DNA of 64,000 nucleotides, from positions 98,813-162,812 of IMG/VR virus record IMGVR_UViG_3300036985_006490; one strand, written 5' to 3'. The translations under genes were made by a program, and so were the position numbers. Positions 13,112 to 51,332 of the stretch are shown piece by piece. This stretch comes from a virus. How positions within the stretch are numbered: the stretch's first letter is position 1; the number at the start of each line of letters is the position of its first letter. A model generated the notes under the pieces. That model was given only the letters and a program-made list of their open reading frames with translations. It was not told the origin of the DNA and did no database searches.

Positions 13112-16100
13112 ATGAGATCATTTATTACTCACACAACCGAAAATTACGAACATATAACATTAAACTTAGTTAAGAGTATCAACAAATATTCTGATTATAA
13201 AATTATTGTTTACACAATAGATTATGATGGTTCCGATAATCTACAAAAAGAAACTACATGTATAAGATTAGATTTGAACCTTCCGAGTTTGGATGATTCA
13301 AGTTTTATTTTAGACACAAATGGTAATTCATATGTTAATAGACCAAAAATTAGAACTTACTTAACTTTAGGTGCTAAAATTGACGCAATGTTACATGCCA
13401 CATCCATTATTGATGAATGGGTTTACATTGACTCAGATAGTATTGTAAATAAGAATGTTGATGAGTTATTCGATCACTGTAATAAAATTACAGAGTTCCC
13501 ATTAGCAACTTTAGGACCTTATGAATATGTTTTAATAACTACCCCTGATGGAAAATTATTAGGAAATCCATATTGGAAAGAAAACAATACAGTCGATAAT
13601 GAAAATACTTTAGAATGGCCCTTAATGAAATTTATGGGTATAAATCCGAATCAAAGAAGTCATTATCGAACGACAAATATTTTAGTTGGAAACTCTAAAA
13701 CAAAAGATTTTTTGAAAATATGGAAAGAAACTAAAGACATTTTACCAAAATTAGTTTCATTAGAAACTATCGCCCCTTACCATGAAGAAACATTATACAA
13801 CGTATTAATTTGGAAAATTAATCCAAATCATGAAGGCTTGCCTATTTCATATATAAATGTTAATAGTGCCGACAGATTAAACCATTTTTTCAAATTTGTG
13901 CCAATAAAAAAAACAACAATTGACCACTTTTATGTCATACCTGAAAACAAAAATGATATTAAGGTTTTTCACGGAGAAAAACGTCAATCAGAGATTGATA
14001 AAATGTTTGAAATAATTGATAATTCCAAAAATACTAAAGTTTTATTTTTAGCCCCTCACCTATCAACAGGTGGAATGCCATCTTACTTATTAAAACGAAT
14101 AGAAAGTCTCATTCAATATACATCAGATGTTGAAATATTTGTTGCAGAGTTTTGTGAATATTCAAATTTATATACAGTTCAAAGAAACAGAATTAAAGAA
14201 TTGATACCAGAACAAAGATTTTGGACTATTAATACTCTATCAAACCATACTGTTGAAAATTCAATGAAAGTTATAGACATTATTAAAAGTAATTCTATTG
14301 ATATTGTACACGTTGACGAAATGATTGAAGGTTTTGATTCATTTAATAAAGTACCAAATGAGTTAAAAAATGCCCTCTACAACAATGATAGAACTTGGAG
14401 AGTTGTAGAAACCTGTCATAATATTTGGTTCGACCCAAACACGTTAAAACAATTTCATCCTGATGCATATGCTTTATGTACCCCATACCACTTGGAGAAC
14501 ACATTCAAAGAAATGCCATCCCACAAAGAGGTTTTCGAGTTCCCAATTGAAAACAATTTCAGGTCTCGTGAGGAACAAATCAAATCTCAAGAAATACTGG
14601 GATTAGATAGTACAAAAATTCACATAATCAATGTTGGTTTATGGACCTCAGGTAAAAATCAAGGTGAGGGGATTGAAATTGCAAGACATTTTCAAGATAG
14701 AAACGTTGAATTTCATTTCGTAGGAAATCAAGCTTCAAACTTTGAAAGTTATTGGGGCCCTTTGATGTTAAACTTACCATCCAACGTTCGCGTTTGGGGA
14801 GAAAGGAATGACGTAGAAACCTTTATGAAAGCGTCCGACATTTTAATGTTTAATTCGACTTGGGAATGTAATCCATTGGTGATACGTGAAGCAGCATCAC
14901 TGGGTCTAAAGATTATTACCAGAGATTTACCACAATATGTTGGAATGTTTAAGGGACTAATTACACCTCTTTCTGATGAAATTTCCAACAATGTTGGTTT
15001 GTTACGTAAATTAATTTCTTCAACACGTGATTACCAAATACTGAATGGCATGACAGAAGAATTCACAGAAAAACATTATAATCTATATAAATTCTTGTTA
15101 ACACAAGAACCAATAAAAAACTTAAAAAATAATTCTAAAGTACATGTTAAACAATTTTTTGTAAACGAACCGTTTTTAGAAATTACAGGTGAAAGTGATA
15201 GTGAATATGATATTAAGTTTTTTGACGAATCAGGAATTTGCCATTACGATAATAAAATTAAATCAAACCATTGGATTAAATTAAATCGAAAATATTTTAC
15301 CAAATGGAATACCAAAATTTTAGAAGATGGTGTTTTGATATATGACAAAACTCTTGATTATAAAGGTAAACGAGTTTTCATAAACTTTGATAGTCGTTCT
15401 TTGGGAGATACTATATCATGGATACCTTATGTTCTTGAATTCAAGAATGTTCATCAATGTGATGTGATTGTATCAACCCATTTGAATCATCTTTTCCGTG
15501 ATGTATATTCAGAATTAGAATTCGTGGAACCAGGAAATGTTATTCATAATATTCACGGACAATATAATATTGGTTGGTTTTATGATGTAAATAAAGAACC
15601 AGTCTTGCCAAACACAATTCCGTTACAACAAGCCGCAACAAATATTTTAGGATTACCATATACTGAAATAAAACCAAGAATTTCATATAAAATTTATGAC
15701 AGACCTTATAAAGAAAAGTATATAACAATTGCAACCAACTCGACCGCAGGATGTAAGTTTTGGACAAAAGAGGGATGGCAAGAACTTATTAATCATATTA
15801 GCTCTTTAGGTTACAAAGTTGTTAATGTGTCCAAAGAAAATAACCCATTCAATAATTGTGAAAAATTAAAAAACACTGAAATGGATTACACAATGAATGT
15901 CATTCATCACAGTGAATTCTTTGTAGGATTGTCAAGTGGATTGTCTTGGTTATCTTGGGCAATGGGGAAACACGTTGTAATGATTAGTAACTTTACAGAA
16001 TCAAATCACGAATTTACTTCCAATTGTACAAGAATTACAAACCCAAATGTTTGTAATGGATGCTGGAACAGTCCTATTCATAGATTCGATAAAGGGGATT

Positions 16101-16204
16101 GGAATTGGTGTCCTGTTCATAAAGGCACTTCTCAACAATTTGAATGTCATACATCAATAACATCAGAAATGGTAATAAATAAAATACAAACCTTATTAAA
16201 ATGA
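13112..16204 (+). CDS. Three-domain glycosyltransferase: GT-A (DxD) + GT4-like + Aah/TibC-like protein O-heptosyltransferase
   Basis: YIDSD; APHLSTGGMP...STWECNPLVIREA; SRSLGDTISWIPY...FFVGLSSGLSWLSWA...ISNFT...CNGCWN...WCP...FEC. Confidence 0.75.
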   Translation: MRSFITHTTENYEHITLNLVKSINKYSDYKIIVYTIDYDGSDNLQKETTCIRLDLNLPSLDDSSFILDTNGNSYVNRPKIRTYLTLGAKIDAMLHATSIIDEWVYIDSDSIVNKNVDELFDHCNKITEFPLATLGPYEYVLITTPDGKLLGNPYWKENNTVDNENTLEWPLMKFMGINPNQRSHYRTTNILVGNSKTKDFLKIWKETKDILPKLVSLETIAPYHEETLYNVLIWKINPNHEGLPISYINVNSADRLNHFFKFVPIKKTTIDHFYVIPENKNDIKVFHGEKRQSEIDKMFEIIDNSKNTKVLFLAPHLSTGGMPSYLLKRIESLIQYTSDVEIFVAEFCEYSNLYTVQRNRIKELIPEQRFWTINTLSNHTVENSMKVIDIIKSNSIDIVHVDEMIEGFDSFNKVPNELKNALYNNDRTWRVVETCHNIWFDPNTLKQFHPDAYALCTPYHLENTFKEMPSHKEVFEFPIENNFRSREEQIKSQEILGLDSTKIHIINVGLWTSGKNQGEGIEIARHFQDRNVEFHFVGNQASNFESYWGPLMLNLPSNVRVWGERNDVETFMKASDILMFNSTWECNPLVIREAASLGLKIITRDLPQYVGMFKGLITPLSDEISNNVGLLRKLISSTRDYQILNGMTEEFTEKHYNLYKFLLTQEPIKNLKNNSKVHVKQFFVNEPFLEITGESDSEYDIKFFDESGICHYDNKIKSNHWIKLNRKYFTKWNTKILEDGVLIYDKTLDYKGKRVFINFDSRSLGDTISWIPYVLEFKNVHQCDVIVSTHLNHLFRDVYSELEFVEPGNVIHNIHGQYNIGWFYDVNKEPVLPNTIPLQQAATNILGLPYTEIKPRISYKIYDRPYKEKYITIATNSTAGCKFWTKEGWQELINHISSLGYKVVNVSKENNPFNNCEKLKNTEMDYTMNVIHHSEFFVGLSSGLSWLSWAMGKHVVMISNFTESNHEFTSNCTRITNPNVCNGCWNSPIHRFDKGDWNWCPVHKGTSQQFECHTSITSEMVINKIQTLLK

Positions 16205-16884: not shown

Positions 16885-17722
16885 TTTTTTTGTAATTGAT
16901 TTTTAAGTCTTCCTCATTTAACATCGAGGGAATATAATTACTGAATTTTTGTGAAATATGATTTATTAGGTTTTTTGCATATCTTCTATTGTGATTTGGT
17001 CCAGGATGCGCTCCATCCGATCCAAAGTCACTGAAACTACTGTAATCCCCGTCAAACCTGTTAAATTCTTGGTAATCTTTGGGAATGTTCAACCATCCAT
17101 TCCATATCCAATTACATTTCTTCGTCTCCAAAAAATACTTTATCAGAAGATGATTTTTATACCAATTCATAAAATCTTCATAATCATTTTGTATTGCAGT
17201 TAAATTATTTTGTAATTCCCGACCGTCTTCAGTCTCCTCAGTATATCCCCATTGTGAAGTTATCATGAATGGCTCTAAACCTCCGTCTTTGGTATAGAGT
17301 TCCCTTCTATGAGGTTGAGTATACATAATTAAAACTAAGTCAGGTTTTATAAAATCATAATAAGTTATTAGGCACCTTGCGATAAAATCATTACTTCGTC
17401 CTCCCACACCAAAGTTATGGTCAACTCCATTTTTAATTAATTTAGAAAATTGTGCAGGCCATGTTTCATCATTATTAACTCCAACACCTTCAGTATTAGA
17501 GTCCCCAATAGACATTATCTTAAACCCATCTTTATGTATTGAATCTCCTCTGAACCCTAATTCATTATAAGTATATGTACATAACCGGGTTTTATCTGAA
17601 CCTGATGTGTGATATGACTGATTAACCTTTTCAGATAAATTCCATTTGTAACTTGATATTTCAAATCCTTTTGGAGTCCAATATTTAATATTATCAACCG
17701 ACTTAAAAAATATTTCATCCAT
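16877..17722 (-). CDS. SGNH/GDSL-like hydrolase or acyltransferase
   Basis: YNELGFR, GDSNTEGVG, WP, NFGVGG.S, DGAHPG. Confidence 0.7.
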   Translation of the reverse strand: MDEIFFKSVDNIKYWTPKGFEISSYKWNLSEKVNQSYHTSGSDKTRLCTYTYNELGFRGDSIHKDGFKIMSIGDSNTEGVGVNNDETWPAQFSKLIKNGVDHNFGVGGRSNDFIARCLITYYDFIKPDLVLIMYTQPHRRELYTKDGGLEPFMITSQWGYTEETEDGRELQNNLTAIQNDYEDFMNWYKNHLLIKYFLETKKCNWIWNGWLNIPKDYQEFNRFDGDYSSFSDFGSDGAHPGPNHNRRYAKNLINHISQKFSNYIPSMLNEEDLKINYKKII

Positions 17723-18798
17723 TATATTAGATTTTGTTTTTTTGAAATAAATTCTTGTAAATTATGCCAACATTGCTCCGAAGGAATAAATGAATTAACT
17801 TCCCGAACAAAGTCATCATAATCGGGGTGTGAAACATCCCAAACTTTTTCTGTTTCAAACTCTTCATGAGTAAATGTTCCCCAGTTATTAATTTTTCCAT
17901 AAAAAACATTAACTTTTTTTCCAAAAATTGACAACATTAAATCATAAAACATTTTCATTTCTTTATAATTTTTTTGTTGTACTACAAAAGAAGTTTTAAT
18001 ATTCTTCAAACCCCTTATAGTGTTAATGAATTTTAGATTTTCAATTAATTCATCCCAATTCCCACCAACTCTCACTTTATTTTCATATGTATCTTTAATT
18101 GCGGCATCGATACTAATTTCACATGTTTTCACATATTTGTGAACTTTGGTCATTGATTCCCACATTTTTCTATCCCATCTTGTAGCATTGGTATGAAGAT
18201 GTATATGGGTTAAACTTGGCCATTTGTTCGAATCAAAGTTTCTGAGAAAATCTCTAAACCCAACAGAAAGGAAAGGATCCCCAGTTCCAGTAATGTATAG
18301 TCTTTTTGTTGTTTGTCCATATTGTGATTCAATCTCATCGATAGTTTTTTTCACTCTTTCAATTCCCTTGGAATTTTCTACTATCAAGTTTATACGACAG
18401 GATGGGCATTTGAGATTACAAGTTCTGTCGAATGAAAATTGTATTGTGGATGGTGGAGTCACAATTCCCTTTTTGAATGAATCTATCTTTGATTCCAAGT
18501 CCTTTGGTAGTCTATTTTTGTGATATAATACACTTGTGTTTCCAATTTCACCAAAATTTTCAAGTTGATGTAAAAAGGGACATTGAGATTTATCACAGTG
18601 TCTAAAAGAACCATCTATTACAGATTCTCGTATTTCGTTTGCTTCAGATGACTCCCAAGCATCTTTTGGAGATGTATGTTGTGGTAAATGTTTTTTCAAC
18701 CAAGATGCACAACACAAAAATCTATCCTTTTCATGAATTTCAAGAGCGGCAAAAGGTACTCCACAAACATAATCTTTTAAATCTATCTCAGTATTCAT
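17722..18798 (-). CDS. Radical SAM protein with N-terminal SPASM/twitch-like Cys cluster
   Basis: CNLKCPSC, TGTGDPF, TN, ISID; N-terminal C..CC..C...CP. Confidence 0.85.
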   Translation of the reverse strand: MNTEIDLKDYVCGVPFAALEIHEKDRFLCCASWLKKHLPQHTSPKDAWESSEANEIRESVIDGSFRHCDKSQCPFLHQLENFGEIGNTSVLYHKNRLPKDLESKIDSFKKGIVTPPSTIQFSFDRTCNLKCPSCRINLIVENSKGIERVKKTIDEIESQYGQTTKRLYITGTGDPFLSVGFRDFLRNFDSNKWPSLTHIHLHTNATRWDRKMWESMTKVHKYVKTCEISIDAAIKDTYENKVRVGGNWDELIENLKFINTIRGLKNIKTSFVVQQKNYKEMKMFYDLMLSIFGKKVNVFYGKINNWGTFTHEEFETEKVWDVSHPDYDDFVREVNSFIPSEQCWHNLQEFISKKQNLI

Positions 18799-18837
18799 TT
18801 ATCTAAAATTATAAGACAATTTTTAGTTTTATCACCA

Positions 18838-19662
18838 TTATATGGAAGATTTGATTTTTTCTAAATGATTGAAAATTGGATAACCATCCCAAGTAGATTC
18901 GAACGTATTCGGCTTTGTCTTTGATATTAGATTTGGTTCATTCAATTCAATCCAATTGAATATTTGGTTTGAGATATATTCATAACCTAACTCATTTGGA
19001 TGTTCACATATCAGTGATTTCATATTCGGATTATTAATGAAATTAGGAAAAATAGACTTTGTAAACTTCATTAAGTTTTTTGTGTTATGTAATTTTTCAA
19101 AAAGTACGTTGTGATTGTAATCTACTGGTATGTAAAAAAATTTGTATTTTTTCGTTTGACAATGTTCTTCCATTATTTTTAGGTAAAAAATTTGTTCTAA
19201 AAATGGGTCTAAATCTATGTTATCAATAAATTTGATGTATTCCCTTCCAATATCATAACTGTGAACATTGTAAATATTTTTTTCCATACTCGGATTTATG
19301 TTCAGTACTGAACACTCCCTATAAAAAGAAAACCTGCTTGGAATTGGTAATAACCAAATTAATAAAACATCGAATTCTTCTGATAAGTTTTTATCATAAT
19401 ATTTTTCGAACCACACTTTCAGATTTCCCGAAGTCGATGATCCACCAAATCCTAAATTTATTAGACAATCATAATTTATTTGTTTTTGAAGATTTGTCGG
19501 CCAAGAATATTTATGAAATCTTTCTTTACTTGGAAAATAAACTTCTTCAGTATTTTTATACTTGATTTTATTCTCAACTTTGTATGAAACTACCTCAGGG
19601 GCATAACAACCAACACCTTCGGTAAATGAACATCCAATTGTTATTAAAAGTTTTTTTTTCAT
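18838..19662 (-). CDS. SGNH-like protein
   Basis: IGCSFTEGVG, SWP, NLGFGGSS, HPNELGY. Confidence 0.65.
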   Translation of the reverse strand: MKKKLLITIGCSFTEGVGCYAPEVVSYKVENKIKYKNTEEVYFPSKERFHKYSWPTNLQKQINYDCLINLGFGGSSTSGNLKVWFEKYYDKNLSEEFDVLLIWLLPIPSRFSFYRECSVLNINPSMEKNIYNVHSYDIGREYIKFIDNIDLDPFLEQIFYLKIMEEHCQTKKYKFFYIPVDYNHNVLFEKLHNTKNLMKFTKSIFPNFINNPNMKSLICEHPNELGYEYISNQIFNWIELNEPNLISKTKPNTFESTWDGYPIFNHLEKIKSSI

Positions 19663-19679
19663 ACTAAATCATAACTTTA

Positions 19680-20174
19680 TTAGATGAGTTTGTTATTTTC
19701 TTTTGAAACAACATCTTCATGATTAATAAACATAATAACACTCCTACGAGTTCCCTTGGTGATTTTTTTCACCTCATGGTCATACTTGGATTCGAATACA
19801 TACGGTACTCCAATTTCTTTTTCAATAAAATAATATGGGTCATAAACAATATAGTCTCCACCCTCATAATTATCATTCAAATGAAATCCTGTAACCAAGT
19901 ATCTATTTTTACCATAAACATAATTATTATCAGTATGGCGTAGAAAATAGTCATTTTCTTTATACCTCATAATCACAAATTTTTGGTCATAAGAATTTAA
20001 ACTCAAATTTAATTTTGATTCGACCCATTTCAATAATTTTATTTTAACAGGAATTACTAAGTCAGATTCAATTATTTTAGCGTCATAACTCCTATCCCGT
20101 TTGACAAAATATTCTAAATCATGATAAAGCGTTTCTATCGATTCGATTTCATCTTGAGTAATTAATTTCATCAT
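19680..20174 (-). CDS. 2OG-Fe(II) oxygenase (prolyl-hydroxylase-like)
   Basis: HTD, LNDNYEGG, HEV...G.R. Confidence 0.8.
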   Translation of the reverse strand: MMKLITQDEIESIETLYHDLEYFVKRDRSYDAKIIESDLVIPVKIKLLKWVESKLNLSLNSYDQKFVIMRYKENDYFLRHTDNNYVYGKNRYLVTGFHLNDNYEGGDYIVYDPYYFIEKEIGVPYVFESKYDHEVKKITKGTRRSVIMFINHEDVVSKENNKLI

Positions 20175-20182
20175 TATACCGA

Positions 20183-20671
20183 TTATATTAAACTATTTTT
20201 TTTTATTGAAAGTGGATTATTATGCATAAACCCAACTAAGGTATATCTGTCTCCAATACAATCATTTACTTTATGTTGTTCATCACCAGAAAAATAAATC
20301 ATATCTCCCGTTTTAGGTTTGTATTCTTTGCAACCAAAAATTACTTCACCTCCAATAAAATCCTCATTTAAAAAAATTATAAATGACCATGGGTTAACAT
20401 GTCCATGAAATGTCTCTATCTGTTTAATAGTTTCATTAACCATTTGAACTCGAATTTTTTTGAAAAAAAAATTTGAAAATTTTTGTATAGTTAAATCTCT
20501 ATTTATTAAATCTATATAGTAAAATTTATATACATTATCTCCATAATAATTCATTTTTTCATTATTAAACATATCAATGAAATATAAAACTTCTTTTTCT
20601 TCCAAGAATGATTTCACATATTTTATCATAAGTTTATGTCTAAAATGGTTTATTAACGCAAATTTGACCAA
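20183..20671 (-). CDS. 2OG-Fe(II) oxygenase-like protein (likely start at MIKYV)
   Basis: FLNEDFIGG, HKV...GDR; HxD motif atypical. Confidence 0.7.
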   Translation of the reverse strand: MVKFALINHFRHKLMIKYVKSFLEEKEVLYFIDMFNNEKMNYYGDNVYKFYYIDLINRDLTIQKFSNFFFKKIRVQMVNETIKQIETFHGHVNPWSFIIFLNEDFIGGEVIFGCKEYKPKTGDMIYFSGDEQHKVNDCIGDRYTLVGFMHNNPLSIKKNSLI

Positions 20672-21149
20672 AATGTGAGAATAGTAAATAGCATTCTCCC
20701 TCCTCGATTTTACTTACTTGTTGGTTTGTAGATCTTCCATGAATTACTCCATACCCTGTAGTCATCTTGTTACGAACATTATTGAAATAAAAATTTCCTC
20801 CTATAAAATCTTCATTTAAAAAAACAACAACAGTGAACGTCGTATGTCTATATAAACTTTTTTGATTACTATAATTAAAAGTATGGGTTGGTAATCTATA
20901 TCCTTTTGATAATTTTATAATTCTGTTTTCAATTATTTCATTTACTGAAATCTTTTTGTTTTCATAAAGAATATTTTTCAATTTTGTATCTAACCAATTG
21001 TATTTAATAAATTTCTGATAGTATTTGAAATCTTGGTCATACAGTTGCCATTCAGATTCGTTTGAAAGGAGTAAACTACATTCTTCCTTTGAAAAAAATT
21101 GATACATTTTATATGATATTATTGGTATATTTAACTTGGTTTTCCACAT
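20640..21149 (-). CDS. Degenerate 2OG-Fe(II) oxygenase-fold protein
   Basis: FLNEDFIGG retained, but HxD reads HTF and the distal His reads QQV. Confidence 0.6.
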   Translation of the reverse strand: MWKTKLNIPIISYKMYQFFSKEECSLLLSNESEWQLYDQDFKYYQKFIKYNWLDTKLKNILYENKKISVNEIIENRIIKLSKGYRLPTHTFNYSNQKSLYRHTTFTVVVFLNEDFIGGNFYFNNVRNKMTTGYGVIHGRSTNQQVSKIEEGECYLLFSHFGQICVNKPF

Positions 21150-21708
21150 CTAAACAAAAATTTCCAGCATACACGATTCTATCTAATTCAGATTTTGGGG
21201 TAGGGATTGCCGTATGTCTTATATTTGCCGGAAATATAAAAAAATCTCCTTCTTGTGGTAAAAATTTATGTCTTATTTTGTCTTCAGTTTCGAAAACAAT
21301 ATGCCCCTCATCTCCTTTAATATCTTTTGGTGTTTGTAAGTAATATGTGAACGTAAAGTCCGTCGTAATATTTGACCGACCAGGTGGATGAACTAAAAGA
21401 TGTTGGTGTAACCATTCCATATCAAACCCTTTGGTCTGAGTATATATCCAAAAATGTTCCGCATAATTAATAAACTTTCTATTTGAGATTTCTTCTACGT
21501 ATTTTTTAATTTTTTTATTAATTTGTAGAAAACATTTAGTGTTTATTTCCATCCAAATTGAATTCTCTTTTGTTTGAGTTTTGGTATAGATTACTGATGA
21601 ATCATTTAACTTTGCATATTTAAGACAATCATCTTTTATATTCATAAATTTATCATCATGACCTTTATGAATAGTAAATGTCGTAGACAACTTCAATTCT
21701 TGAATCAT
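21109..21708 (-). CDS. Putative 2OG-Fe(II) oxygenase (TIGR02466-like)
   Basis: HQH, YYLQTP, PQEGDFFIFPANIRH, R..AGN. Confidence 0.7.
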   Translation of the reverse strand: MIQELKLSTTFTIHKGHDDKFMNIKDDCLKYAKLNDSSVIYTKTQTKENSIWMEINTKCFLQINKKIKKYVEEISNRKFINYAEHFWIYTQTKGFDMEWLHQHLLVHPPGRSNITTDFTFTYYLQTPKDIKGDEGHIVFETEDKIRHKFLPQEGDFFIFPANIRHTAIPTPKSELDRIVYAGNFCLDVENQVKYTNNII

Positions 21709-22142
21709 ATGATTTTTTTATCAATTTTTTCGTATCTCTGATAGTTACTGAGTATTTCCTCTCCCTTTTTAATATCTCTTATTGATTTCATACTATTTTT
21801 ATCAATATTACTTTTAGTTTCATAATAACCACTGTTCACAAAATAATATGGGTTAGTATAAATCCAATGACAACTGTTAGTTAATTTTACATAAATGCTA
21901 GTGTCTTTTGGGAAATCTGAGGAAAATAAAAATAAATCTTGAATGTGTTGACGTAATTCCTCATTCAATTCACTTAATTGGTCTTGAGTTATGGGGTAGA
22001 ATCCTGTTTTACCCTCCCACAATTGAAACAAAAGTGTGTCTTTAACGATATCTTTTATCGCAAAAACTCCTATTCCTGAAATATTACTTGGTTTCAACTT
22101 TACAAAAACACAATTTTTTATGTAATTGTACGCATCCATCAT
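21705..22142 (-). CDS. SET-domain protein (lysine methyltransferase-like)
   Basis: LKPSNISGIGVFAIKDI, YFVN, RDIKKGEEILSNY; canonical NHS reads NSG. Confidence 0.8.
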   Translation of the reverse strand: MMDAYNYIKNCVFVKLKPSNISGIGVFAIKDIVKDTLLFQLWEGKTGFYPITQDQLSELNEELRQHIQDLFLFSSDFPKDTSIYVKLTNSCHWIYTNPYYFVNSGYYETKSNIDKNSMKSIRDIKKGEEILSNYQRYEKIDKKII

Positions 22143-22291
22143 AAATGTTTATTCATAAACAATTCAAAAAATTTACCAATTACAGTTTCGACTCTTTCTT
22201 TTTCTGTAGTTGATAATTGTTCGGTTGTTCTGTTTTTAATTTGATTTAAGGACTTTTTTTTGTATAACTGAGGGTGTTTAGATATATCCAT
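22139..22291 (-). CDS. Small hypothetical protein (50 aa, MDISKHPQLYKKKSLNQ...), not in the ORF track
   Basis: Translated by hand; fills the gap between the Hint protein and the SET gene; its TGA overlaps the SET ATG (ATGA). Confidence 0.65.
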   Translation of the reverse strand: MDISKHPQLYKKKSLNQIKNRTTEQLSTTEKERVETVIGKFFELFMNKHL

Positions 22292-22301
22292 GTTTGTAAA
22301 T

Positions 22302-25034
22302 TTATTTGTTATGTACTAATACTCCATTCGCATAAAAATTTTGATTGTCAGCAACTGAAATAATATGCGTTTGTGTGTTTATTCTTTCCAATTCTGTTAT
22401 AGAAACAATCTCCAAGATTTCTCTGTTAGGTTTGGTTAATTTGTCCCCAATATTTATTTGTGTTACTTCCAAAGGAATATCATATCTTTCATTAGTCCAC
22501 TTTGGTTTATAAGACGCAAGTTTTAATCCATTAACATAAAATGGGTGGTCAAATGTTGAAATGATTTCTGTATCATCAGAAAGTATGTATTTAACTAAAT
22601 CATCATGTATGGGTGAGTTTACTTCTGTAACTTCTCTTTCCTCCACAACATTTATAATTTCATTGTAAGACAATACTAAATCCCCCACGTTAATCTCTTC
22701 AATATTTTTTTCTATTCCATTTCCCATCAAAACTTTAGTACCGCTTATAAAACAAGCTTTATTGTGGGTTAAAATACCATTAGCAAAAAAGTTATGATTA
22801 TTGGTTACTTCGAAAATATAAGTTTGTGTTGGTTTGAATTCTAGTTCTTCAATTTTAGTAATTCTTGTATTCAATCCGTCAATTAAGTTAACATTATCTC
22901 CTACTTCTATTTGTGTGACATTATTATTAAAATTGTACCTATCGTTGGTCAATAAAGGTCTATATGACGACAAATTAAACCCATTTATAAAAAATGGGTG
23001 GTCAAAAGTACAAACAATTTCAGTACCATTTTCAAAAGAATACTTAACCAAATCATCATGAATCGGTGTAATTATATTTGTTACGGTTTGATTTTCTTTT
23101 AATCCTGTTTCTAAATTAACTGAAACTACTATATCACCATTCGCAATATCTTCAATTGGTTTTGTAGTTCCGTCTGCCATTTCAATCATTGTACCTTTTA
23201 CAAAACATGCTCGATTATGTACCAAAACGTCATTAGCAAAATAATTATGATTAATTTCAACTTCAGACAAATTGTATACTTTAGTCTCTTCATTAACTAC
23301 GGTAATTTTATCCAAAATAACATTTTTGTTCATTAATTTCACAGAATCTCCGATTTCAATTTTTTGTACTGGTTCACCTATTGTGTATAATGTATTTGAT
23401 AATAAATTGTCATAAGATGACCAACCCTTACCATTAACGAAGATTGGGTGGTCAGTTGTCGATTTGAGAGTACCCCCATTATCAAACTCATAAACTACAA
23501 TTTTATCTATTTTTTTGGAAAATACATTTAATACTTTACTAACCTTTGTCTCATTACTATTGAAGTTGAATGACAATATAGAATCTCCAATTACAACATC
23601 TTCAATATTTTTTGTTGTACCATCTTCCATTTGAATTTTGGTACCTGCAACAAAACAAGGAGAGTTATATGATACAATACTATTGAACGCCGTAGAACCA
23701 TTTATTATATACGTATCGGTATCTTCAACATCAAGTTCAACGAATGCCAACCCAGTCTCGGGTGAAACATAGAAGTTTAATTCGTCAACTTTAATCAAGT
23801 TACCTTCCAAATCATATACGTAATCAGTTACTGCGTTTATTTCAGAAATAAATTTAATACTACTTTTATCAGATATAGAATCATAAATCAAATATTTTTT
23901 GTTAATACCTGAAAATAGCGAATCATTATCTATCACCATTTCCATCATTGCCCCATATTTGAGTTGTTTAACATCTTTGAAGACAACCTCGGAATTACTA
24001 ATATAAGATCCATCAGGAAACTCACCTCCATCATAACTCCAAGTTAAAGCATTCAAATCAGTTTCAGCTTGAGGGGATCCATTAACTTTATAAGACTTTA
24101 TGGTTTCACCAACTTGAATTTCGGACACTTCTTTCCAAGTTTCATCATTCATCAAAACTTCATGGGTAGACAAAATTCCACCCGAATCGTTTTTGATAAA
24201 ATTTGTTGTGAATTCATAGTAATGATGGTCTTTAACTTTATTACCTTCCAATTCTATCGATTCAGGTAATTCAAATATAGAACTGATTTTATAAGAATGC
24301 AGTATCATTATATCCAAATTTCCCCCATAAACTATCCCAAAAACTCTTATTGATGTAATATGATTATCCTCATCTACACTTGATGGGTGAATGTGATATT
24401 GTTCAATTAATTTATTTTCATCAGAATTTTCAGATAAGAAATCATTCCAACAATTTTCAGATGTTCCTCCAGTTAAATTAATTTTGAAAAAATCAATTGG
24501 ATTAAAAGATTCATATACATCCTTTATAGTTGCATCTGGTATGTTACCTGTATTTATTTCTTTTGTCAATGTATCATAAGTACCTACTGATGAAGAATGG
24601 TAATATCCAACACAATTATCAGTTATAAAGCTATCGGTGAACAAATTATAAACATTCAATCTATTTTTACAATACACACTGTCAAATATTGCGGTTTCGT
24701 CGTAGGCTAATCTTAACACAAATTTATCGGCAGCATCCGCAACTGATGTTGGATAAATTGAATTAATATTCTCGTCATGTAAGTTGATGACGATTGATGG
24801 TAGATTATTATTAACTTCTTCAACAAGTCTATTAACAAAATCTATGTGTAAAAATGGTTTATAGATAATGTCTAAAGTTGTGATGTTGTTTGACGATAAT
24901 ACTGATAAAAATCCACTAAAGTCAAAATTCACCAATTCCTGGTCGATAAACCCAGTATCCGTATTTAACTCTAATAATCTTAAATCACCATTTGAGTCTT
25001 TTACAAAGTCTGCCGAAAATAACGTTCCTTTCAT
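22302..25034 (-). CDS. Putative circularly permuted ATP-grasp domain + degenerate Hint + three tandem Hint (bacterial intein-like) domains
   Basis: N-terminal SADFVKDSNGDLRLLELNT; Hint domains C460-N607, C610-N758 and C761-N909, each with CF..GT, TxDHP and terminal HN. Confidence 0.85.
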   Translation of the reverse strand: MKGTLFSADFVKDSNGDLRLLELNTDTGFIDQELVNFDFSGFLSVLSSNNITTLDIIYKPFLHIDFVNRLVEEVNNNLPSIVINLHDENINSIYPTSVADAADKFVLRLAYDETAIFDSVYCKNRLNVYNLFTDSFITDNCVGYYHSSSVGTYDTLTKEINTGNIPDATIKDVYESFNPIDFFKINLTGGTSENCWNDFLSENSDENKLIEQYHIHPSSVDEDNHITSIRVFGIVYGGNLDIMILHSYKISSIFELPESIELEGNKVKDHHYYEFTTNFIKNDSGGILSTHEVLMNDETWKEVSEIQVGETIKSYKVNGSPQAETDLNALTWSYDGGEFPDGSYISNSEVVFKDVKQLKYGAMMEMVIDNDSLFSGINKKYLIYDSISDKSSIKFISEINAVTDYVYDLEGNLIKVDELNFYVSPETGLAFVELDVEDTDTYIINGSTAFNSIVSYNSPCFVAGTKIQMEDGTTKNIEDVVIGDSILSFNFNSNETKVSKVLNVFSKKIDKIVVYEFDNGGTLKSTTDHPIFVNGKGWSSYDNLLSNTLYTIGEPVQKIEIGDSVKLMNKNVILDKITVVNEETKVYNLSEVEINHNYFANDVLVHNRACFVKGTMIEMADGTTKPIEDIANGDIVVSVNLETGLKENQTVTNIITPIHDDLVKYSFENGTEIVCTFDHPFFINGFNLSSYRPLLTNDRYNFNNNVTQIEVGDNVNLIDGLNTRITKIEELEFKPTQTYIFEVTNNHNFFANGILTHNKACFISGTKVLMGNGIEKNIEEINVGDLVLSYNEIINVVEEREVTEVNSPIHDDLVKYILSDDTEIISTFDHPFYVNGLKLASYKPKWTNERYDIPLEVTQINIGDKLTKPNREILEIVSITELERINTQTHIISVADNQNFYANGVLVHNK
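22308..22754 (-). other. Hint domain 3 (C761-N909)
   Basis: CFISGTKV...STFDHPFY...QNFYANGVLVHN followed by K-stop. Confidence 0.9.
22761..23207 (-). other. Hint domain 2 (C610-N758)
   Basis: CFVKGTMI...CTFDHPFF...HNFFANGILTHN. Confidence 0.9.
23214..23657 (-). other. Hint domain 1 (C460-N607)
   Basis: CFVAGTKI...STTDHPIF...VYNL...HNYFANDVLVHN. Confidence 0.9.
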
Positions 25035-25127: not shown

Positions 25128-25670
25128 TTACAAAAGGGTTTTAGGACTTGAACTAGTTGTTCTTGAGATACAGATATGCGTAAGTTCTAAACTTTGTGAT
25201 AAACTTAGTTGAAAATCAATTATATGGTATACTTCAGAAAAATTAATTTTATTGAATTGAACTCTTTTATTATGCTCCAAAGTATTCGGATATAGATTAA
25301 TAATTCTTACTTTTTTATCAAGATTCGAATTAATTAACTCGAGTGAAGATTTTTGTAAACTTAATTTATTTTCTCTATAATCATCAAAACTACCATTATT
25401 GAAGATGGCCGAAGTTAGAACGTTAAAAATAGTTTTATCCTGATATTTCCACAAGTCAAAAAGTTCTTCAAATATTTTTTGTTGGTAAATCGGATGATAT
25501 GTATTATTAATAAACACATCCAAATCTAAAACTTCATTTAGAATGTCTGTGTATCGTTTAAGGTCATACCCATTACTTCTTGAAAAACCAAAAACTTCAT
25601 GGTTTTTTTTCAAAAAATCATAAAGACCTCTACCCAAAGAATCACTGTGTCCTGTTATTCCTATCTTCAT
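25128..25670 (-). CDS. Short-chain dehydrogenase-like (Rossmann) protein
   Basis: ITGHSDSLG, DVFINN, YxxxK (YRENK). Confidence 0.7.
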   Translation of the reverse strand: MKIGITGHSDSLGRGLYDFLKKNHEVFGFSRSNGYDLKRYTDILNEVLDLDVFINNTYHPIYQQKIFEELFDLWKYQDKTIFNVLTSAIFNNGSFDDYRENKLSLQKSSLELINSNLDKKVRIINLYPNTLEHNKRVQFNKINFSEVYHIIDFQLSLSQSLELTHICISRTTSSSPKTLL

Positions 25671-26179
25671 ATTAAACTAACACTACTTTTCATATTTTCC
25701 TTATATAAAAATATTATTAATGAATACCGAATACCACTTTCAATTTTTGTAACCTCATGTTCTCTTGTATTTTTGAAAGAATAAATTGTACCAGCTATTT
25801 TAGGAATAATTTGTGTAGGTTTATATAATACAAAATCACCTCCCACATAGTCATCATTCAAACAAACTCCAACATTCAATGTTTGATTAGGATAGTATAT
25901 GTCACTATGTCTTTCAAATTCATTTCCGGCTATGTATTTGTGTAAATGTATTACTTCAAAGGGTTTGGTTATTTCGATATTTTGGTCTATTAACAAATAC
26001 TCAGTAATTTTATCAAAAATCCATTTTACCGACTCATTTCGATAAATATTATAATAAGTATACGATATTTTTTCCCTCGGTCTTTCAACGGTTTTACTAT
26101 TCACATCTCTGTGAGTACCCTCTATTTCTAAGGTTAAATTTATAATCTTATCACACTCTTCTTTAGAAAAACAAACCAT
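25667..26179 (-). CDS. 2OG-Fe(II) oxygenase
   Basis: HSD, LNDDYVGG, HEV...GIRYSL. Confidence 0.8.
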   Translation of the reverse strand: MVCFSKEECDKIINLTLEIEGTHRDVNSKTVERPREKISYTYYNIYRNESVKWIFDKITEYLLIDQNIEITKPFEVIHLHKYIAGNEFERHSDIYYPNQTLNVGVCLNDDYVGGDFVLYKPTQIIPKIAGTIYSFKNTREHEVTKIESGIRYSLIIFLYKENMKSSVSLI

Positions 26180-45398: not shown

Positions 45399-46239
45399 TC
45401 GAATTTAATTTTTTTATCAGATGTTTTATTACTATGTCTTGTGAATCTTTACCATTATGCCCACAATCTCTGGCTTTACCTTGACTATCATCAATTACAT
45501 TTATTAAATCAACATTATTAGAAATAAAAGATTCCTTATGTATCATTTCAAAATCAGTAGAATAAGTCCAATGTAAAACTTTGACTCCCACGGATTTCCA
45601 AAGAGCATCTACCGTCATTGGACAAAAATTAGTATTTTTTATCAATTCCCCACGATTTTCTAAATAACTATGATAATACCATTTACCATATTCTAATGAA
45701 TTTTGTGGATGCCAGTCTTCAGGCAATGCTCCCGAAAATGATTCAAATTCTATCCCATTATAGTTATTTGTTTTAAATGCGTATACTATTCTGTGTATTT
45801 CAGGCCATTGATAAACCGCTAGCTTAGGTAGTTTATTTAATTTTGAAACATGATTAAAAAATAAAATTGTGTTATACATTTGAAAATCAGCACTTGTTCC
45901 TCCCGCCCCCAAATTAAAAATATCTAAATTTAAAGTCTTAGACAACTTAGTAGACCACATATCATCATAATGTAACCCAATACCTTCTGTATATGAACAC
46001 CCAAATGTTAATAGATAATCTTTGTCTAAGTCATCAAATTCTTTTGTCCTATATCCCCATGAATTGAATTTATATTCAATTTCATTGTCATAATAATACC
46101 AATCGGACCCTTTTTCGTTTTTGTTTTTTTGATAAAGTTCTTCATAATCTGTTGCATGAAAGTACTTTTTTTGGTTAGATAAACCAAAATTCTTTATTAT
46201 AGGGGCTTCATTTGTAATTCTGAAAACTGACATCTCCAA
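45385..46239 (-). CDS. SGNH-like protein
   Basis: NSWGYR, FGCSYTEGIG, NLGAGGTS, ARDCGHNG. Confidence 0.65.
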   Translation of the reverse strand: MEMSVFRITNEAPIIKNFGLSNQKKYFHATDYEELYQKNKNEKGSDWYYYDNEIEYKFNSWGYRTKEFDDLDKDYLLTFGCSYTEGIGLHYDDMWSTKLSKTLNLDIFNLGAGGTSADFQMYNTILFFNHVSKLNKLPKLAVYQWPEIHRIVYAFKTNNYNGIEFESFSGALPEDWHPQNSLEYGKWYYHSYLENRGELIKNTNFCPMTVDALWKSVGVKVLHWTYSTDFEMIHKESFISNNVDLINVIDDSQGKARDCGHNGKDSQDIVIKHLIKKLNSNGLG

Positions 46240-48116
46240 TATCTATTTTTTCTTTGATAATGATATGATGTATGATAAAAAGTTTTTTCATCAAATTTTA
46301 CCCCACTATCATAGTGATTTAAATATAATAAATTTTCTTCTAAATTTAAACAATACTTTAAAGTATCTTTTGAGTACTTTTTGGCCATGGGATATGAAAT
46401 TCTATAATCAAAACACATGTCCATATTTAATTGAATTACGTCTTCTAAGTCCATATTAAACTCATCATTAATAAATTTTAAAAATTCTTGACGTAAGGTT
46501 TCCCTGTTTTGATGGAAAACAATACTTGTGGCGCTTTTGTACTCCCAAAATATGTCATTTTCACCTGATACTTGTCTACCCCAAAACCCATTATTATAGA
46601 ACACAGATTTCAAAGATTCATCTGTTTTTTTTATTTCAGACCCTATTAAAGTTTCGGGATTATTAGTAAAATATAATAACATTTTTTCAATCACATCAAT
46701 ATGTTTGTATTCATATTTATTAAAAAGATATTCTAATAGATAATGCCCCCACCCGTAATAATATAAAACAATTAATAAATGTGAAAATGAGTGTCCTTTA
46801 AAAACATCCTCTTCACTTGCAGTACTAGTTGCTTTTACCCCCCAAGTATGTTCTACAATGTAGTTTTCCAAATCTTCAACACTTAAATAAAACGTGTCTA
46901 AAGGAACCGTTTCATATTTTAAACCATGTTTTTCCATATACCATGGTTGACCCATTGTGGCGTTGTACGTTAACACTAATGGATGAACCATTAAAAAATC
47001 TTTTTGTCCTAAATCAATTAATTTTTGGATTCCTATTTTTAATGTATCATAGGTTTCGTTCGGCATTGGCCAAATTAATTCACTGTACGTCGAAATATTT
47101 TGTTCCCTATATTTTTGTAAATAAGAGTACACTTTATCTTGTTTTAAATTAAATCTATTCGTTGCTAGTAATGTGTCAGTGTTGAAACTTTGCATCGCAA
47201 ATGTAATTCCCTTAAAAAGTCTGCTTTTAGCATCATTATCCATAGTGGCAATTTCATATATTTGTTCAACATTTGATTTAGCCCACGTTACATCCCAAAA
47301 TTTAGGGTATCCAGTCTCTAACTTTTTTTGAATGACATATTTTGTAATGTCTTTGTCTCTTTCCATCATCCCCCAATTTGAATCACAAACACTGACATAT
47401 TCAATTTTTTTATCGGACATCCAATCTATTTCTTTATACACTCTCTCTAAATCAAATGTTTTGATTTTTTGCCAATATTCATCACCAATATCACAGAAAG
47501 CACATTTATATGGACACCCCCTCAGTGTTTCATATGTCACCTGCCATATTTGATCCCCAATTTCTTTTTCTACTTTTTCAATAATCCAATCATAAAATCC
47601 AGAAAGTATTGGACTTGGTATTATTTCTAAATTATTTAATCTTGATGGCTGCTCACATAATTTTCCACTTTTTGGAAACACATGTGGTATATTATCATAA
47701 TTTTCATTTTTTAGATATCTTTCTAAGATTTCTTTAAATGCAATTTCACCCTCACCAAGAACCGCGATATCAAACATTTCATTTTTCTTAAAGAAATCCA
47801 CATCTCTTTTATCGACGTTTGGTCCTCCTGTTATAATTAAACAATTAGGATATTTTTTCTTTATTTCTTTTGATAGTTCTCGATTGTAATTCCAATTCCA
47901 AACATAGCTACTAAGGGCAACAACATGTGGTTCAAAATCTATACTTTCAACGTATTTTTTTGGAGTTTTTTTTTCAATGATTACATCCGAAACCCTGAAA
48001 TTGTTTTTTACTATTTCACTTGTCTGCGCGTACATCCATTGATAACTGATAGCAAGTGGCAAAAAACTATTAGGCCCGTACTTATCAACGACCTGTACCA
48101 ATAGTAAATTATTCAT
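46197..48116 (-). CDS. Cobalamin-binding-type (class B) radical SAM protein
   Basis: SYVWN...GGP...GEGE B12-binding-like domain; ETLRGCPYKCAFC. Confidence 0.85.
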   Translation of the reverse strand: MNNLLLVQVVDKYGPNSFLPLAISYQWMYAQTSEIVKNNFRVSDVIIEKKTPKKYVESIDFEPHVVALSSYVWNWNYNRELSKEIKKKYPNCLIITGGPNVDKRDVDFFKKNEMFDIAVLGEGEIAFKEILERYLKNENYDNIPHVFPKSGKLCEQPSRLNNLEIIPSPILSGFYDWIIEKVEKEIGDQIWQVTYETLRGCPYKCAFCDIGDEYWQKIKTFDLERVYKEIDWMSDKKIEYVSVCDSNWGMMERDKDITKYVIQKKLETGYPKFWDVTWAKSNVEQIYEIATMDNDAKSRLFKGITFAMQSFNTDTLLATNRFNLKQDKVYSYLQKYREQNISTYSELIWPMPNETYDTLKIGIQKLIDLGQKDFLMVHPLVLTYNATMGQPWYMEKHGLKYETVPLDTFYLSVEDLENYIVEHTWGVKATSTASEEDVFKGHSFSHLLIVLYYYGWGHYLLEYLFNKYEYKHIDVIEKMLLYFTNNPETLIGSEIKKTDESLKSVFYNNGFWGRQVSGENDIFWEYKSATSIVFHQNRETLRQEFLKFINDEFNMDLEDVIQLNMDMCFDYRISYPMAKKYSKDTLKYCLNLEENLLYLNHYDSGVKFDEKTFYHTSYHYQRKNRYWRCQFSELQMKPL

Positions 48117-48795: not shown

Positions 48796-48796
48796 T

Positions 48797-49840: not shown

Positions 49841-49844
49841 CTAA

Positions 49845-51293: not shown

Positions 51294-51332
51294 TTTCTTT
51301 TTGTTTAATATATATATATTATTTTTTTTTAA

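What the first reader, a model, noticed from the sequence alone, without database searches (positions are those of the whole stretch)
22302..25034. Self-processing polyprotein: ATP-grasp-like domain followed by four tandem Hint domains separated only by dipeptides
Seen: three complete ~149-aa Hint domains (Cys1, TxDH block B, terminal HN) lie back to back with the spacers SP|Hint|RA|Hint|KA|Hint|K-stop. A fourth, degenerate Hint-like unit precedes them (~aa 286-457: starts with Gly, lacks TxxH, ends SYN). There is no homing endonuclease, and the +1 residues are R, K and K rather than C/S/T. Established: this is bacterial intein-like (BIL) chemistry, i.e. N-S acyl shift, Asn cyclisation, and cleavage or transfer to an external nucleophile rather than canonical splicing. 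Inference: the N-terminal xDxxxxxxGxxxxxExN motif sits where circularly permuted ATP-grasp amide ligases carry it. Keeping three active Hints with 2-aa exteins implies the spacers matter. They could become thioester-activated Arg-Ala and Lys-Ala (transferable tags or diketopiperazines), or non-canonical ligation could build a basic C-terminal tail, ...YN-SP-RA-KA-K. I know of no described phage system with this architecture.
Basis: partly seen in the sequence, partly recalled or inferred. Interest (0 to 1): 0.9.

Follow-up and report, generated by a model that had tools for sequence, protein, structure and literature searches.

The report
Phage ATP-grasp ligase with self-cutting Hint tail
A large uncultured phage encodes an ATP-using ligase fused to one half-disabled and three intact intein-like self-cutting domains and paired with a tiny partner protein; I found no paper on this design, and the two-residue spacers look like variable linkers rather than hidden peptide products.

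Summary
The 910-aa ORF lies on the minus strand (22302-25034). It carries three complete mini-Hint domains (C460-N607, C610-N758, C761-N909), each with Cys1, TxDH and terminal HN. The spacers are SP, RA, KA and a final K. A Cys-less Hint fold (aa 283-457) precedes them.

Residues 1-282 model confidently as a GspS/YgiC/eukaryotic-GS-type ATP-grasp. Its D9/E22/N24 triad is invariant or nearly so (96, 96 and 95 of 96 relatives).

The family is large and seen only in viral or metagenomic DNA. Hint copy number runs from 0 to 3, with at least 29 changes on a 96-tip tree. Spacers run from 0 to 11 residues, and only the junction residues are conserved (xP before the first unit, R or K at +1).

A 43-53-aa ORF directly follows the gene in 79 of 80 loci, and it also follows three Hint-less relatives I checked. 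It is predicted to bind the ATP-grasp/Hint0 core (ipSAE 0.90, best control 0.01).

My reading: a two-piece ATP-grasp amide ligase carrying optional, self-removing BIL-type Hints. I do not think it is a dipeptide factory. The substrate is unknown.

Earlier follow-ups in this scan described the same family on other genomes. I found no paper describing it.

The parts
24189..25034 (-). aa 1-282: ATP-grasp domain of the GspS/YgiC/eukaryotic-GS type. It starts directly at the Mg/ATP strand (D9, E22, N24) and has no pre-ATP-grasp N-terminal region.
   Evidence: AF2 model pLDDT 94.4. VIA matches: 5oeu Z 10.2 over 223 aa, 7uka YgiC-ADP Z 9.9, 2io7 GspS Z 9.5; classical LysX/RimK align only from residue 52 on. 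D9 and E22 are 96/96, N24 95/96, R108 95/96, K171 91/96, R230 95/96. hhalign places the motif on YgiC 101-120.
23664..24188 (-). aa 283-457: Hint0, a Hint-fold domain with no Cys1 (G286) and no TxxH. It keeps the block-F-like E437/D440 and the terminal Asn457. The penultimate His is Tyr in this protein.
   Evidence: 2lwy Z 19.4, 6tmm Z 18.8. The A2 profile hits 6tmm at E 1.8e-5. Column counts: G286 87/96, H456 94/96, N457 94/94 aligned.
23658..23663 (-). Spacer S458-P459. It reads [AS]P in all 120 close relatives.
23214..23657 (-). Hint1 (C460-N607), R-type BIL-like mini-Hint with Cys1, T526xDH and H606-N607.
   Evidence: it falls in the R-type clade
23208..23213 (-). Spacer R608-A609. The +1 Arg is conserved; the second residue and the spacer length vary in relatives.
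22761..23207 (-). Hint2 (C610-N758), K-type middle unit. It is sister to the terminal K-type clade and is missing in the 90%-identical relative P0003.
   Evidence: best PDB sequence match 6tmm BIL2 at E 6.4e-12
22755..22760 (-). Spacer K759-A760.
22308..22754 (-). Hint3 (C761-N909), the terminal K-type unit.
22302..22307 (-). K910 and the stop codon. The final Lys follows the terminal unit in 129 of 135 cases.
22139..22291 (-). 50-aa partner protein with invariant Y10 and near-invariant K11 and H49. Predicted to bridge the ATP-grasp and Hint0 domains.
   Evidence: Present directly downstream in 79/80 loci and after three Hint-less relatives checked. Alignment A3. Complex prediction ipSAE 0.90 against 0.01 for the best control.
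17722..22142 (-). Co-directional downstream genes: SET-domain protein, four 2OG-Fe(II)-oxygenase-like genes, a 274-aa protein of unknown function and a 358-aa protein whose relative in L002 hits Radical_SAM.
   Evidence: Pfam and PHROGs. Radical_SAM call for the L002 homolog. Relatives found on the same strand in 57-59/80 loci (2OG), 44/80 (the 358-aa protein) and 22/80 (SET).

Best explanation
The gene encodes the large subunit of a virus-specific, two-piece ATP-grasp amide ligase. Residues 1-282 are a GspS/YgiC-type ATP-grasp that begins at its Mg/ATP-binding strand. Residues 283-457 are a domesticated Hint fold (Hint0) that has lost the N-terminal nucleophile but keeps its terminal Asn. A 50-aa protein encoded directly downstream is predicted to clamp the two domains together. 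These parts form the constant core of the family.

The three C-terminal units are intact type-A BIL-like mini-Hints. They sit in the enzyme's short, Lys-ending tail. Each most likely removes itself after translation by an N-S acyl shift at Cys460, Cys610 or Cys761 and by cyclisation of Asn607, Asn758 or Asn909. They are optional and are often gained and lost. SP, RA, KA and K are minimal exteins in which only the junction residues are constrained. They are not products.

Shown here: domain anatomy, conservation, copy-number dynamics, the linked partner gene and the predicted interface. Inferred: that autoprocessing occurs, that the ATP-grasp is an active ligase, and that the ligase works with the adjacent 2OG oxygenase and radical-SAM-like genes on an unknown peptide or amine substrate.
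For: - Cys1 is present in 313/313 complete units, HN in 312/313 and TxxH in 308/313. These units come from 270 relatives and share only 37-48% identity within this protein. That indicates purifying selection on the catalytic residues.
- The closest solved relatives are BIL domains.
- Architectures range from 0 to 3 full units, with at least 29 copy-number changes on the 96-tip N-domain tree. The Hint-less P0131 is sister to the 3-Hint P0130, and P0003 (90% identical) lacks the middle unit.
- Spacers run from 0 to 11 aa with free inner residues.
- ATP-grasp fold and conserved D9, E22, N24, R108, K171 and R230.
- The matching residues of Cp1B (D141, E163, N165) are needed for its activity (PMC12568646). 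The mapping onto D9, E22 and N24 is inferred from alignment offsets.
- The partner ORF is present in 79/80 loci and also after three Hint-less members checked.
- Complex prediction supports binding: score 0.90, best of 3 controls 0.01. That mark was reached by 58 of 80 solved complexes and 2 of 110 mismatched pairs. The runs agree in at least 90% of contacts and the partner's pLDDT is at least 87.
- 2OG oxygenase and radical-SAM-like genes are kept on the same strand.
Against: - No processing or ligase activity has been measured.
- A terminal Hint needs only N-terminal cleavage to be removed, yet HN-K is kept in nearly all complete terminal units. That hints at a role for C-terminal cleavage or for the final Lys.
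- The unit types keep a fixed order, R-type then K-type, and orthologous middle units persist. This is more order than pure passengers need.
- About half of the Hint-less relatives also end in Lys. The tails of 1-Hint proteins (SP|RVK) match the de-Hinted 2-Hint tails (SP|RA|K). The tail may therefore have to be re-joined.
- Pro at -1 of Cys460 is, from my memory of intein work, unfavourable for N-terminal cleavage.
- P0001 itself gives no Pfam ATP-grasp hit.
Confidence: 0.55

Rival explanations
1. Tail-building by splicing. The Hints ligate their exteins, either by BIL-type aminolysis or through the epsilon-amine of the +1 Lys as reported for Tetrahymena BIL2. The mature enzyme would then end ...SYN-SP-RA-KA-K. 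This basic, Lys-ending tail would be functional, for example as a substrate arm for the ATP-grasp, the SET methyltransferase or the 2OG oxygenases.
For: - Terminal Lys follows 129/135 terminal units and ends about half of the Hint-less relatives.
- De-Hinted tails are colinear across architectures: SP|RVK against SP|RA|K, and P0131 ...PAPPPKL against its sister P0130 AP|RF|K|KL.
- BIL2, the closest solved relative, forms a Lys-epsilon isopeptide bond (PMC8616854).
- SET and prolyl-hydroxylase-like 2OG genes lie next to the gene.
Against: - Tail length and inner residues vary widely.
- Arg at +1 of the first unit is a poor nucleophile.
- A review states that A-type BILs cleave but do not ligate their flanks (PMC7765530).
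- If Hint0's Asn457 cyclises, the tail would leave the enzyme anyway.
Confidence: 0.2
2. Thioester-driven conjugation. Cys460 turns the C-terminus of the ATP-grasp/Hint0 core into a thioester. The thioester is passed to a lysine of another protein (the partner's invariant K11, a virion protein or a host protein), as in the ATP-independent ubiquitin-like conjugation of the Tetrahymena BUBL locus.
For: - BIL2 is the closest solved relative and conjugates its N-extein to lysines.
- The partner has an invariant Y10-K11 that is predicted to lie on Hint0 strand 420-424.
Against: - Hint-less relatives keep the same partner and core but cannot form a thioester.
- The confident interface list does not include residues 450-459.
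Confidence: 0.1
3. Spacer products. The upstream Asn cyclisation frees the spacer's amine and the downstream Cys1 activates its carbonyl. Each spacer would then leave as a cyclic peptide or diketopiperazine: cyclo(Ser-Pro), cyclo(Arg-Ala) and cyclo(Lys-Ala).
For: - The HN-spacer-Cys1 order has the topology used in SICLOPPS cyclisation (general knowledge).
- The first spacer is always [AS]P in close relatives. X-Pro thioesters cyclise readily (general chemistry).
Against: - Spacers of 0 or 1 residue, which cannot cyclise, are common, and lengths reach 11 aa with free inner residues.
- Units are lost without loss of the gene.
- The yield would be one small molecule per roughly 100-kDa protein.
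Confidence: 0.07
4. The Hints do not process at all and serve as structural repeats, for example as a spacer or binding array on the enzyme.
For: Hint0 shows that a Hint fold can be kept for a non-splicing role in this same protein.
Against: Cys1, TxxH and HN are almost perfectly kept in 313 diverged units. Hint0, in contrast, lost Cys1 and TxxH.
Confidence: 0.05

Closest known systems
Type-A bacterial intein-like (BIL) domains: C. thermocellum BIL (PDB 2lwy) and BIL2 of the Tetrahymena thermophila BUBL1 locus (PDB 6tmm/6y75)
   Same: Mini-Hint of about 140-150 aa with Cys1, TxxH, a terminal His-Asn, no C/S/T at +1 and no homing endonuclease. These are the best sequence matches (6tmm E 6.4e-12) and fold matches.
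   Different: - The known ones lie in variable secreted bacterial proteins or between ubiquitin-like domains.
- Here up to three stand head to tail with exteins of 1-2 residues, at the C-terminus of a conserved phage enzyme.
- They are preceded by a Cys-less Hint.
- The +1 residue is nearly always Arg or Lys.
GspS-type ATP-grasp ligases: E. coli YgiC/YjfC (peptide-spermidine ligases, PDB 7uka/7uk6), GspS synthetase domain (2io7), eukaryotic glutathione synthetases (5oeu, 1m0w), fungal Cp1B (9cjn)
   Same: The same permuted ATP-grasp fold (Z 8.4-10.2 over 204-227 residues) with the D...E-x-N strand first. The motif ADFVKD..G..RLLELNTDT parallels YgiC LDLAWD..G..KLLENNADT.
   Different: - It lacks roughly the first 95-145 residues of those enzymes.
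- It is only about 280 aa long.
- It is fused to a Hint fold and is predicted to need a separate 50-aa subunit.
- Sequence similarity is marginal (hhalign E 1e-3; no Pfam hit for this protein).
- The substrate is unknown.
Canonical mini-inteins (e.g. gp41-1, Npu DnaE/DnaB)
   Same: Hint fold, Cys1, TxxH and HN.
   Different: There is no C/S/T at +1. They are not inserted in a conserved site of a host protein. The exteins are 1-2 residues.

Membership tests
Type-A BIL domain (Hint1-3) | Hint-superfamily sequence and fold | tested here: met
   Three stretches for each Hint-clan Pfam family. 6tmm E 6.4e-12 and 2lwy E 9.7e-6.
Type-A BIL domain (Hint1-3) | N-terminal Cys/Ser nucleophile and block-B TxxH | tested here: met
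   C460, C610, C761; TxDH at 526, 676 and 827. In the family: Cys1 313/313 and TxxH 308/313.
Type-A BIL domain (Hint1-3) | Conserved C-terminal His-Asn with no C/S/T nucleophile at +1 | tested here: met
   HN at 606/607, 757/758 and 908/909; +1 residues are R, K, K. In the family: HN 312/313 and +1 R/K 291/313. Feature as summarised in PMC7765530.
Type-A BIL domain (Hint1-3) | Located in hypervariable regions of non-conserved bacterial proteins | tested here: not met
   Here they sit at the C-terminus of a conserved viral enzyme family. The host context therefore differs. They are BIL-like in chemistry and sequence, not classical BIL loci.
Type-A BIL domain (Hint1-3) | Autocleavage at the N- and C-terminal junctions | not testable with these tools
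   Needs expression and mass spectrometry.
Canonical intein | Cys/Ser/Thr at +1 of the C-extein | tested here: not met
   +1 is R608, K759 and K910.
BUBL-type polyprotein (BIL plus ubiquitin-like domains) | Ubiquitin-like domains as exteins between the BIL domains | tested here: not met
   The exteins are 2, 2, 2 and 1 residues. No Ubl family appears in Pfam.
ATP-grasp superfamily, GspS/YgiC/eukaryotic-GS branch (aa 1-282) | ATP-grasp fold with the permuted strand order of this branch | tested here: met
   5oeu Z 10.2 (223 aa, rmsd 4.6), 7uka Z 9.9, 2io7 Z 9.5 with model 2-280 on chain 311-608. LysX, ArgX and RimK match only from residue 52. Foldseek: YgiC 3.2e-5.
ATP-grasp superfamily, GspS/YgiC/eukaryotic-GS branch (aa 1-282) | Mg/ATP triad D ... 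E-x-N | tested here: met
   D9 96/96, E22 96/96, N24 95/96. Aligned to the YgiC 101-120 motif. The correspondence to Cp1B D141/E163/N165 is inferred from alignment offsets.
ATP-grasp superfamily, GspS/YgiC/eukaryotic-GS branch (aa 1-282) | Significant sequence-profile match to GSP_synth or another ATP-grasp Pfam family | tested here: inconclusive
   No hit for P0001. GSP_synth matches 4/96 relatives (best E 0.0058) and RimK matches 1/96. hhalign to YgiC gives E 1e-3 and probability 22%.
ATP-grasp superfamily, GspS/YgiC/eukaryotic-GS branch (aa 1-282) | N-terminal pre-ATP-grasp region | tested here: not met
   Model residue 1 aligns to residues 94-160 of the solved enzymes. All relatives start at the same Met.
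ATP-grasp superfamily, GspS/YgiC/eukaryotic-GS branch (aa 1-282) | ATP-dependent carboxylate-amine ligation | not testable with these tools
   Needs an enzyme assay.

The most novel reading that the evidence does not exclude
The core (ATP-grasp, Hint0 with its invariant terminal Asn, a Lys-ending tail and the YK-bearing partner) may be a virus-encoded scaffold system. Under this reading a peptide tail, or a group ligated to it, is built or tailored by the adjacent SET, 2OG oxygenase, radical-SAM-like and carbamoyltransferase enzymes. It is then released or transferred by Hint chemistry (Asn cyclisation or a Cys thioester). That would be a ribosomal, E1-independent way for a phage to make or attach a modified peptide. 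The distant relatives whose Hint0 is followed by a 30-45-aa Cys-rich tail would be the clearest cargo-carrying form.
Probability: 0.15. Interest if true: 0.85.

Novelty: new variant of a known kind. Interest (0 to 1): 0.62.

Why it matters
If the reading holds, this is a widespread family: 227 confirmed loci in IMG/VR and at least 656 protein clusters. It is seen only in viral or metagenomic DNA. It joins two activation chemistries in one protein, the acyl-phosphate of an ATP-grasp and the thioester/succinimide of Hint domains, and it splits the ligase into a large and a 50-aa subunit.

The family offers natural tandem mini-Hints that work with exteins of 1-2 residues and with Arg or Lys at +1, which is of interest for protein engineering. 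It also points to a conserved phage gene cluster (ligase, partner, 2OG oxygenases, a radical-SAM-like gene) whose product is unknown.

The finding also corrects an attractive over-reading: comparative data do not support the dipeptides as products.

Tried and rejected
- Pfam and PHROGs on aa 1-459 gave no family.
- The PDB profile search with A2 found only Hint entries.
- The protein-language-model atlas search on aa 1-285 gave scores of 0.90 or less with mixed ATP-grasp families. I treat this as a lead only.
- tblastn of the whole protein against 50,697 phage records hit only inteins of unrelated genes and nothing for the N-domain.
- Attempts to class the virus: Gp23 and NCLDV capsid family searches found nothing, and their controls did not ring, so they say nothing. 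PHROGs on ten large ORFs gave only an SbcC-like protein, whose nearest records are huge uncultured phages and a Microcystis phage at about 22% identity.
- The upstream 180-aa ORF is not the missing ATP-grasp piece. It has no ATP-grasp hit, and in other loci it is not kept at that position.
- The BBA paper on BIL2 is not held.
- I rejected recent tandem duplication: the units share only 59-66% of nucleotides.
- I rejected a wrong start codon: all relatives begin MKGT... at residue 1.
Full report
**Observation.** The stretch 22302-25034 is one ORF of 910 aa on the minus strand. Its C-terminal half holds three complete mini-Hint domains:
- C460-N607
- C610-N758
- C761-N909

Each has Cys1, TxDH and a terminal HN. 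They are separated by R608-A609 and K759-A760, preceded by S458-P459 and followed by K910 and the stop. Pfam reports three stretches for every Hint-clan family (AXH 1.8e-37, Intein_splicing 1.8e-25, Hint 9.7e-19). The units share only 37-48% of their residues and 61-66% of their bases, so they are old copies and not a recent repeat. It only omitted the strand.

**The N-terminal half.** I aligned residues 1-459 with 95 relatives (A2). The AF2 model is very confident (pLDDT 94.4, pTM 0.89).
- Residues 283-459 are a Hint fold. The top matches are the C. thermocellum BIL (2lwy, Z 19.4, rmsd 1.6) and BIL2 of the Tetrahymena BUBL1 locus (6tmm, Z 18.8), followed by inteins and hedgehog. Foldseek agrees, as does a profile search of PDB sequences (6tmm, E 1.8e-5).
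- This Hint0 never has a Cys at position 1 (Gly in 87/96) and has no TxxH. It keeps E437, D440 and a terminal His-Asn (H 94/96, N in all aligned rows). In this protein the His is Tyr.
- Residues 1-279 match the glutathione-synthetase/GspS branch of ATP-grasp enzymes: 5oeu Z 10.2 over 223 residues, YgiC with ADP Z 9.9, GspS Z 9.5 (model 2-280 on chain 311-608) and Cp1B Z 8.4. Classical ATP-grasps (LysX/ArgX, RimK, TTLL11) align only from residue 52 onward. That is what a permuted strand order predicts.
- D9, E22, N24, R108, K171 and R230 are invariant or nearly so.
- hhalign to E. coli YgiC is weak (E 1e-3) but lays ADFVKD..G..RLLELNTDT on LDLAWD..G..KLLENNADT.
- In Cp1B the corresponding R139, D141, E163 and N165 are needed for activity, and YgiC/YjfC are described as peptidylpolyamine synthetases (PMC12568646).
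- The protein lacks the first 95-145 residues of those enzymes. All relatives start at the same Met.

Pfam membership is not reached.

**The family.** The word-index search with the N-terminal half found at least 656 protein clusters. An exhaustive search found 263 representatives at the 50% identity level. IMG/VR holds 227 confirmed loci, and the structural atlas lists only viral clusters for this shape. Cultured phage records lack the N-domain. The window's record is a 162.8-kb viral contig that CheckV rates 49% complete. Relatives sit on contigs of up to 326 kb.

**What the comparison says about the Hints.** I examined 270 relatives.
- Architectures range from no complete Hint unit (73 proteins, 10 of them with a partial unit) through one (98) and two (82) to three (17).
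- All 313 complete units have Cys1, 312 end in HN and 308 have TxxH.
- The +1 residue is R or K in 291 units, and K follows 129 of 135 terminal units.
- A tree of units groups them by type and not by host protein. There is an R-type clade that always comes first, directly after Hint0. There are K-type clades that come last. The middle unit of this protein is orthologous in six proteins and is sister to the terminal K-type.
- P0003, whose N-domain is 90% identical, lacks exactly that middle unit.
- On the N-domain tree the number of full units changes at least 29 times among 96 tips. The Hint-less P0131 is sister to the three-Hint P0130.
- Spacers vary from 0 to 11 residues. Only [AS]P before the first unit and the basic +1 residue are kept.

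This pattern speaks against the spacers being products. It fits catalytically active, self-removing modules whose junction residues alone are constrained.

**Points that do not fit a pure passenger model.**
- Terminal units keep HN-K even though N-terminal cleavage alone would remove them.
- About half of the Hint-less relatives also end in Lys. These include a distant group in which HN is followed by a 30-45-aa Cys-rich tail.
- Tails with the Hints deleted are colinear between architectures: SP|RVK against SP|RA|K, and P0131 ...PAPPPKL against P0130 AP|RF|K|KL.
- BIL2, the closest solved relative, is reported to splice onto a lysine epsilon-amine (PMC8616854). A review states that A-type BILs cleave but do not ligate (PMC7765530).

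I therefore keep tail-building by splicing as the main rival, and thioester transfer to a lysine as a second.

**The partner.** A 50-aa ORF (22139-22291, minus strand) starts 8 bases after the stop codon.
- An ORF of 43-53 aa stands at the same place in 79 of 80 IMG/VR loci. It also follows the Hint-less members P0131, P0205 and P0193.
- The alignment has an invariant Tyr10 and near-invariant Lys11 and His49.
- The complex prediction supports binding: score 0.90, best of 3 controls 0.01. That mark was reached by 58 of 80 solved complexes and 2 of 110 mismatched pairs. The runs agree in at least 90% of contacts and the partner's pLDDT is at least 87. It does not show binding.
- In the model the partner's C-terminal helix lies on residues 8, 10, 17-20, 23, 116-135 and 221-254. 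These include neighbours of the invariant D9 and E22 in the sequence. Its YK segment adds to Hint0 strand 418-426.

The partner thus belongs to the constant core and not to the Hints. Notes from earlier follow-ups in this scan on other genomes gave me this lead. I tested it here on this window's own family.

**Context.** The gene is followed on the same strand by a SET-domain gene, four 2OG-oxygenase-like genes, a 274-aa protein of unknown function and a 358-aa protein whose L002 relative hits Radical_SAM. Upstream lie another 2OG oxygenase and a carbamoyltransferase. Within 10 kb and on the same strand, 2OG oxygenases recur in 57-59 of 80 loci, the 358-aa protein in 44, and SET and the carbamoyltransferase in 22-23. 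A 27%-identical relative shows the same neighbours. I could not correct these counts for how common such genes are in these phages, so the link is suggestive only.

**Verdict.** The most likely reading is a two-piece GspS/YgiC-like ATP-grasp ligase with a domesticated Hint domain. It carries up to three optional, self-removing BIL-type Hints in its Lys-ending tail. The ligase's substrate and the purpose of the tail are unknown. I found no paper on this architecture. Several follow-ups of this scan described the same family on other genomes.

Noticed in passing
window 22308-23657 (the three Hints): The best-scoring Pfam family for the Hints is AXH, the Ataxin-1/HBP1 module (1.8e-37, 110 of 116 profile positions). 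Ataxin-1 AXH structures match by sequence at E 5e-5 to 1.5e-4. This suggests that the AXH profile and these viral Hints are related, or that the profile now contains Hint-like members.
   Followed up: no
relatives P0024-P0052, P0176 and others (proteins): A third kind of terminal module of about 137-142 aa. It starts with Cys (CFT[YF][DE]T...), lacks TxxH and HN, and ends ...SGLGDN.LLN.TFKRQ.... It replaces the K-type terminal Hint in about 60 relatives.
   Followed up: partly
relatives P0239, P0244, P0245, P0250, P0253, P0255, P0257; loci L003-L005: A distant Hint-less subgroup in which Hint0's HN is followed by a 30-45-aa Cys-rich tail, often ending in Lys. In the one subgroup member whose loci I examined (P0245, L003-L005) the downstream small ORF is unrelated to the partner, and the neighbours include a CxxCxxCC protein, a radical SAM enzyme, 2OG oxygenases and PhoH.
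   Followed up: partly
window 23664-23669 (Y456-N457): This protein and a few close relatives (TSN, SYN, SAN) have lost the penultimate His of Hint0, which is kept in 94 of 96 representatives. The terminal Asn is never lost.
   Followed up: partly
window 19680-21708 and 25667-26179: Five small 2OG-Fe(II)-oxygenase-like paralogues (162-199 aa) surround the gene. Four stand in a row with overlapping ends.
   Followed up: no
window 46197-54153: Three large radical-SAM proteins stand in a row, one with a B12-binding domain (639, 482 and 699 aa). Next to them at 54150-57016 are two paralogous fusions of eukaryote-type galactosyltransferase (Glyco_transf_7N/7C) with Laminin_G_3.
   Followed up: no
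window 13112-16204: A 1030-aa fusion of GT1-family and GT9 (heptosyltransferase) glycosyltransferase domains, also conserved next to the homologous locus L002.
   Followed up: no
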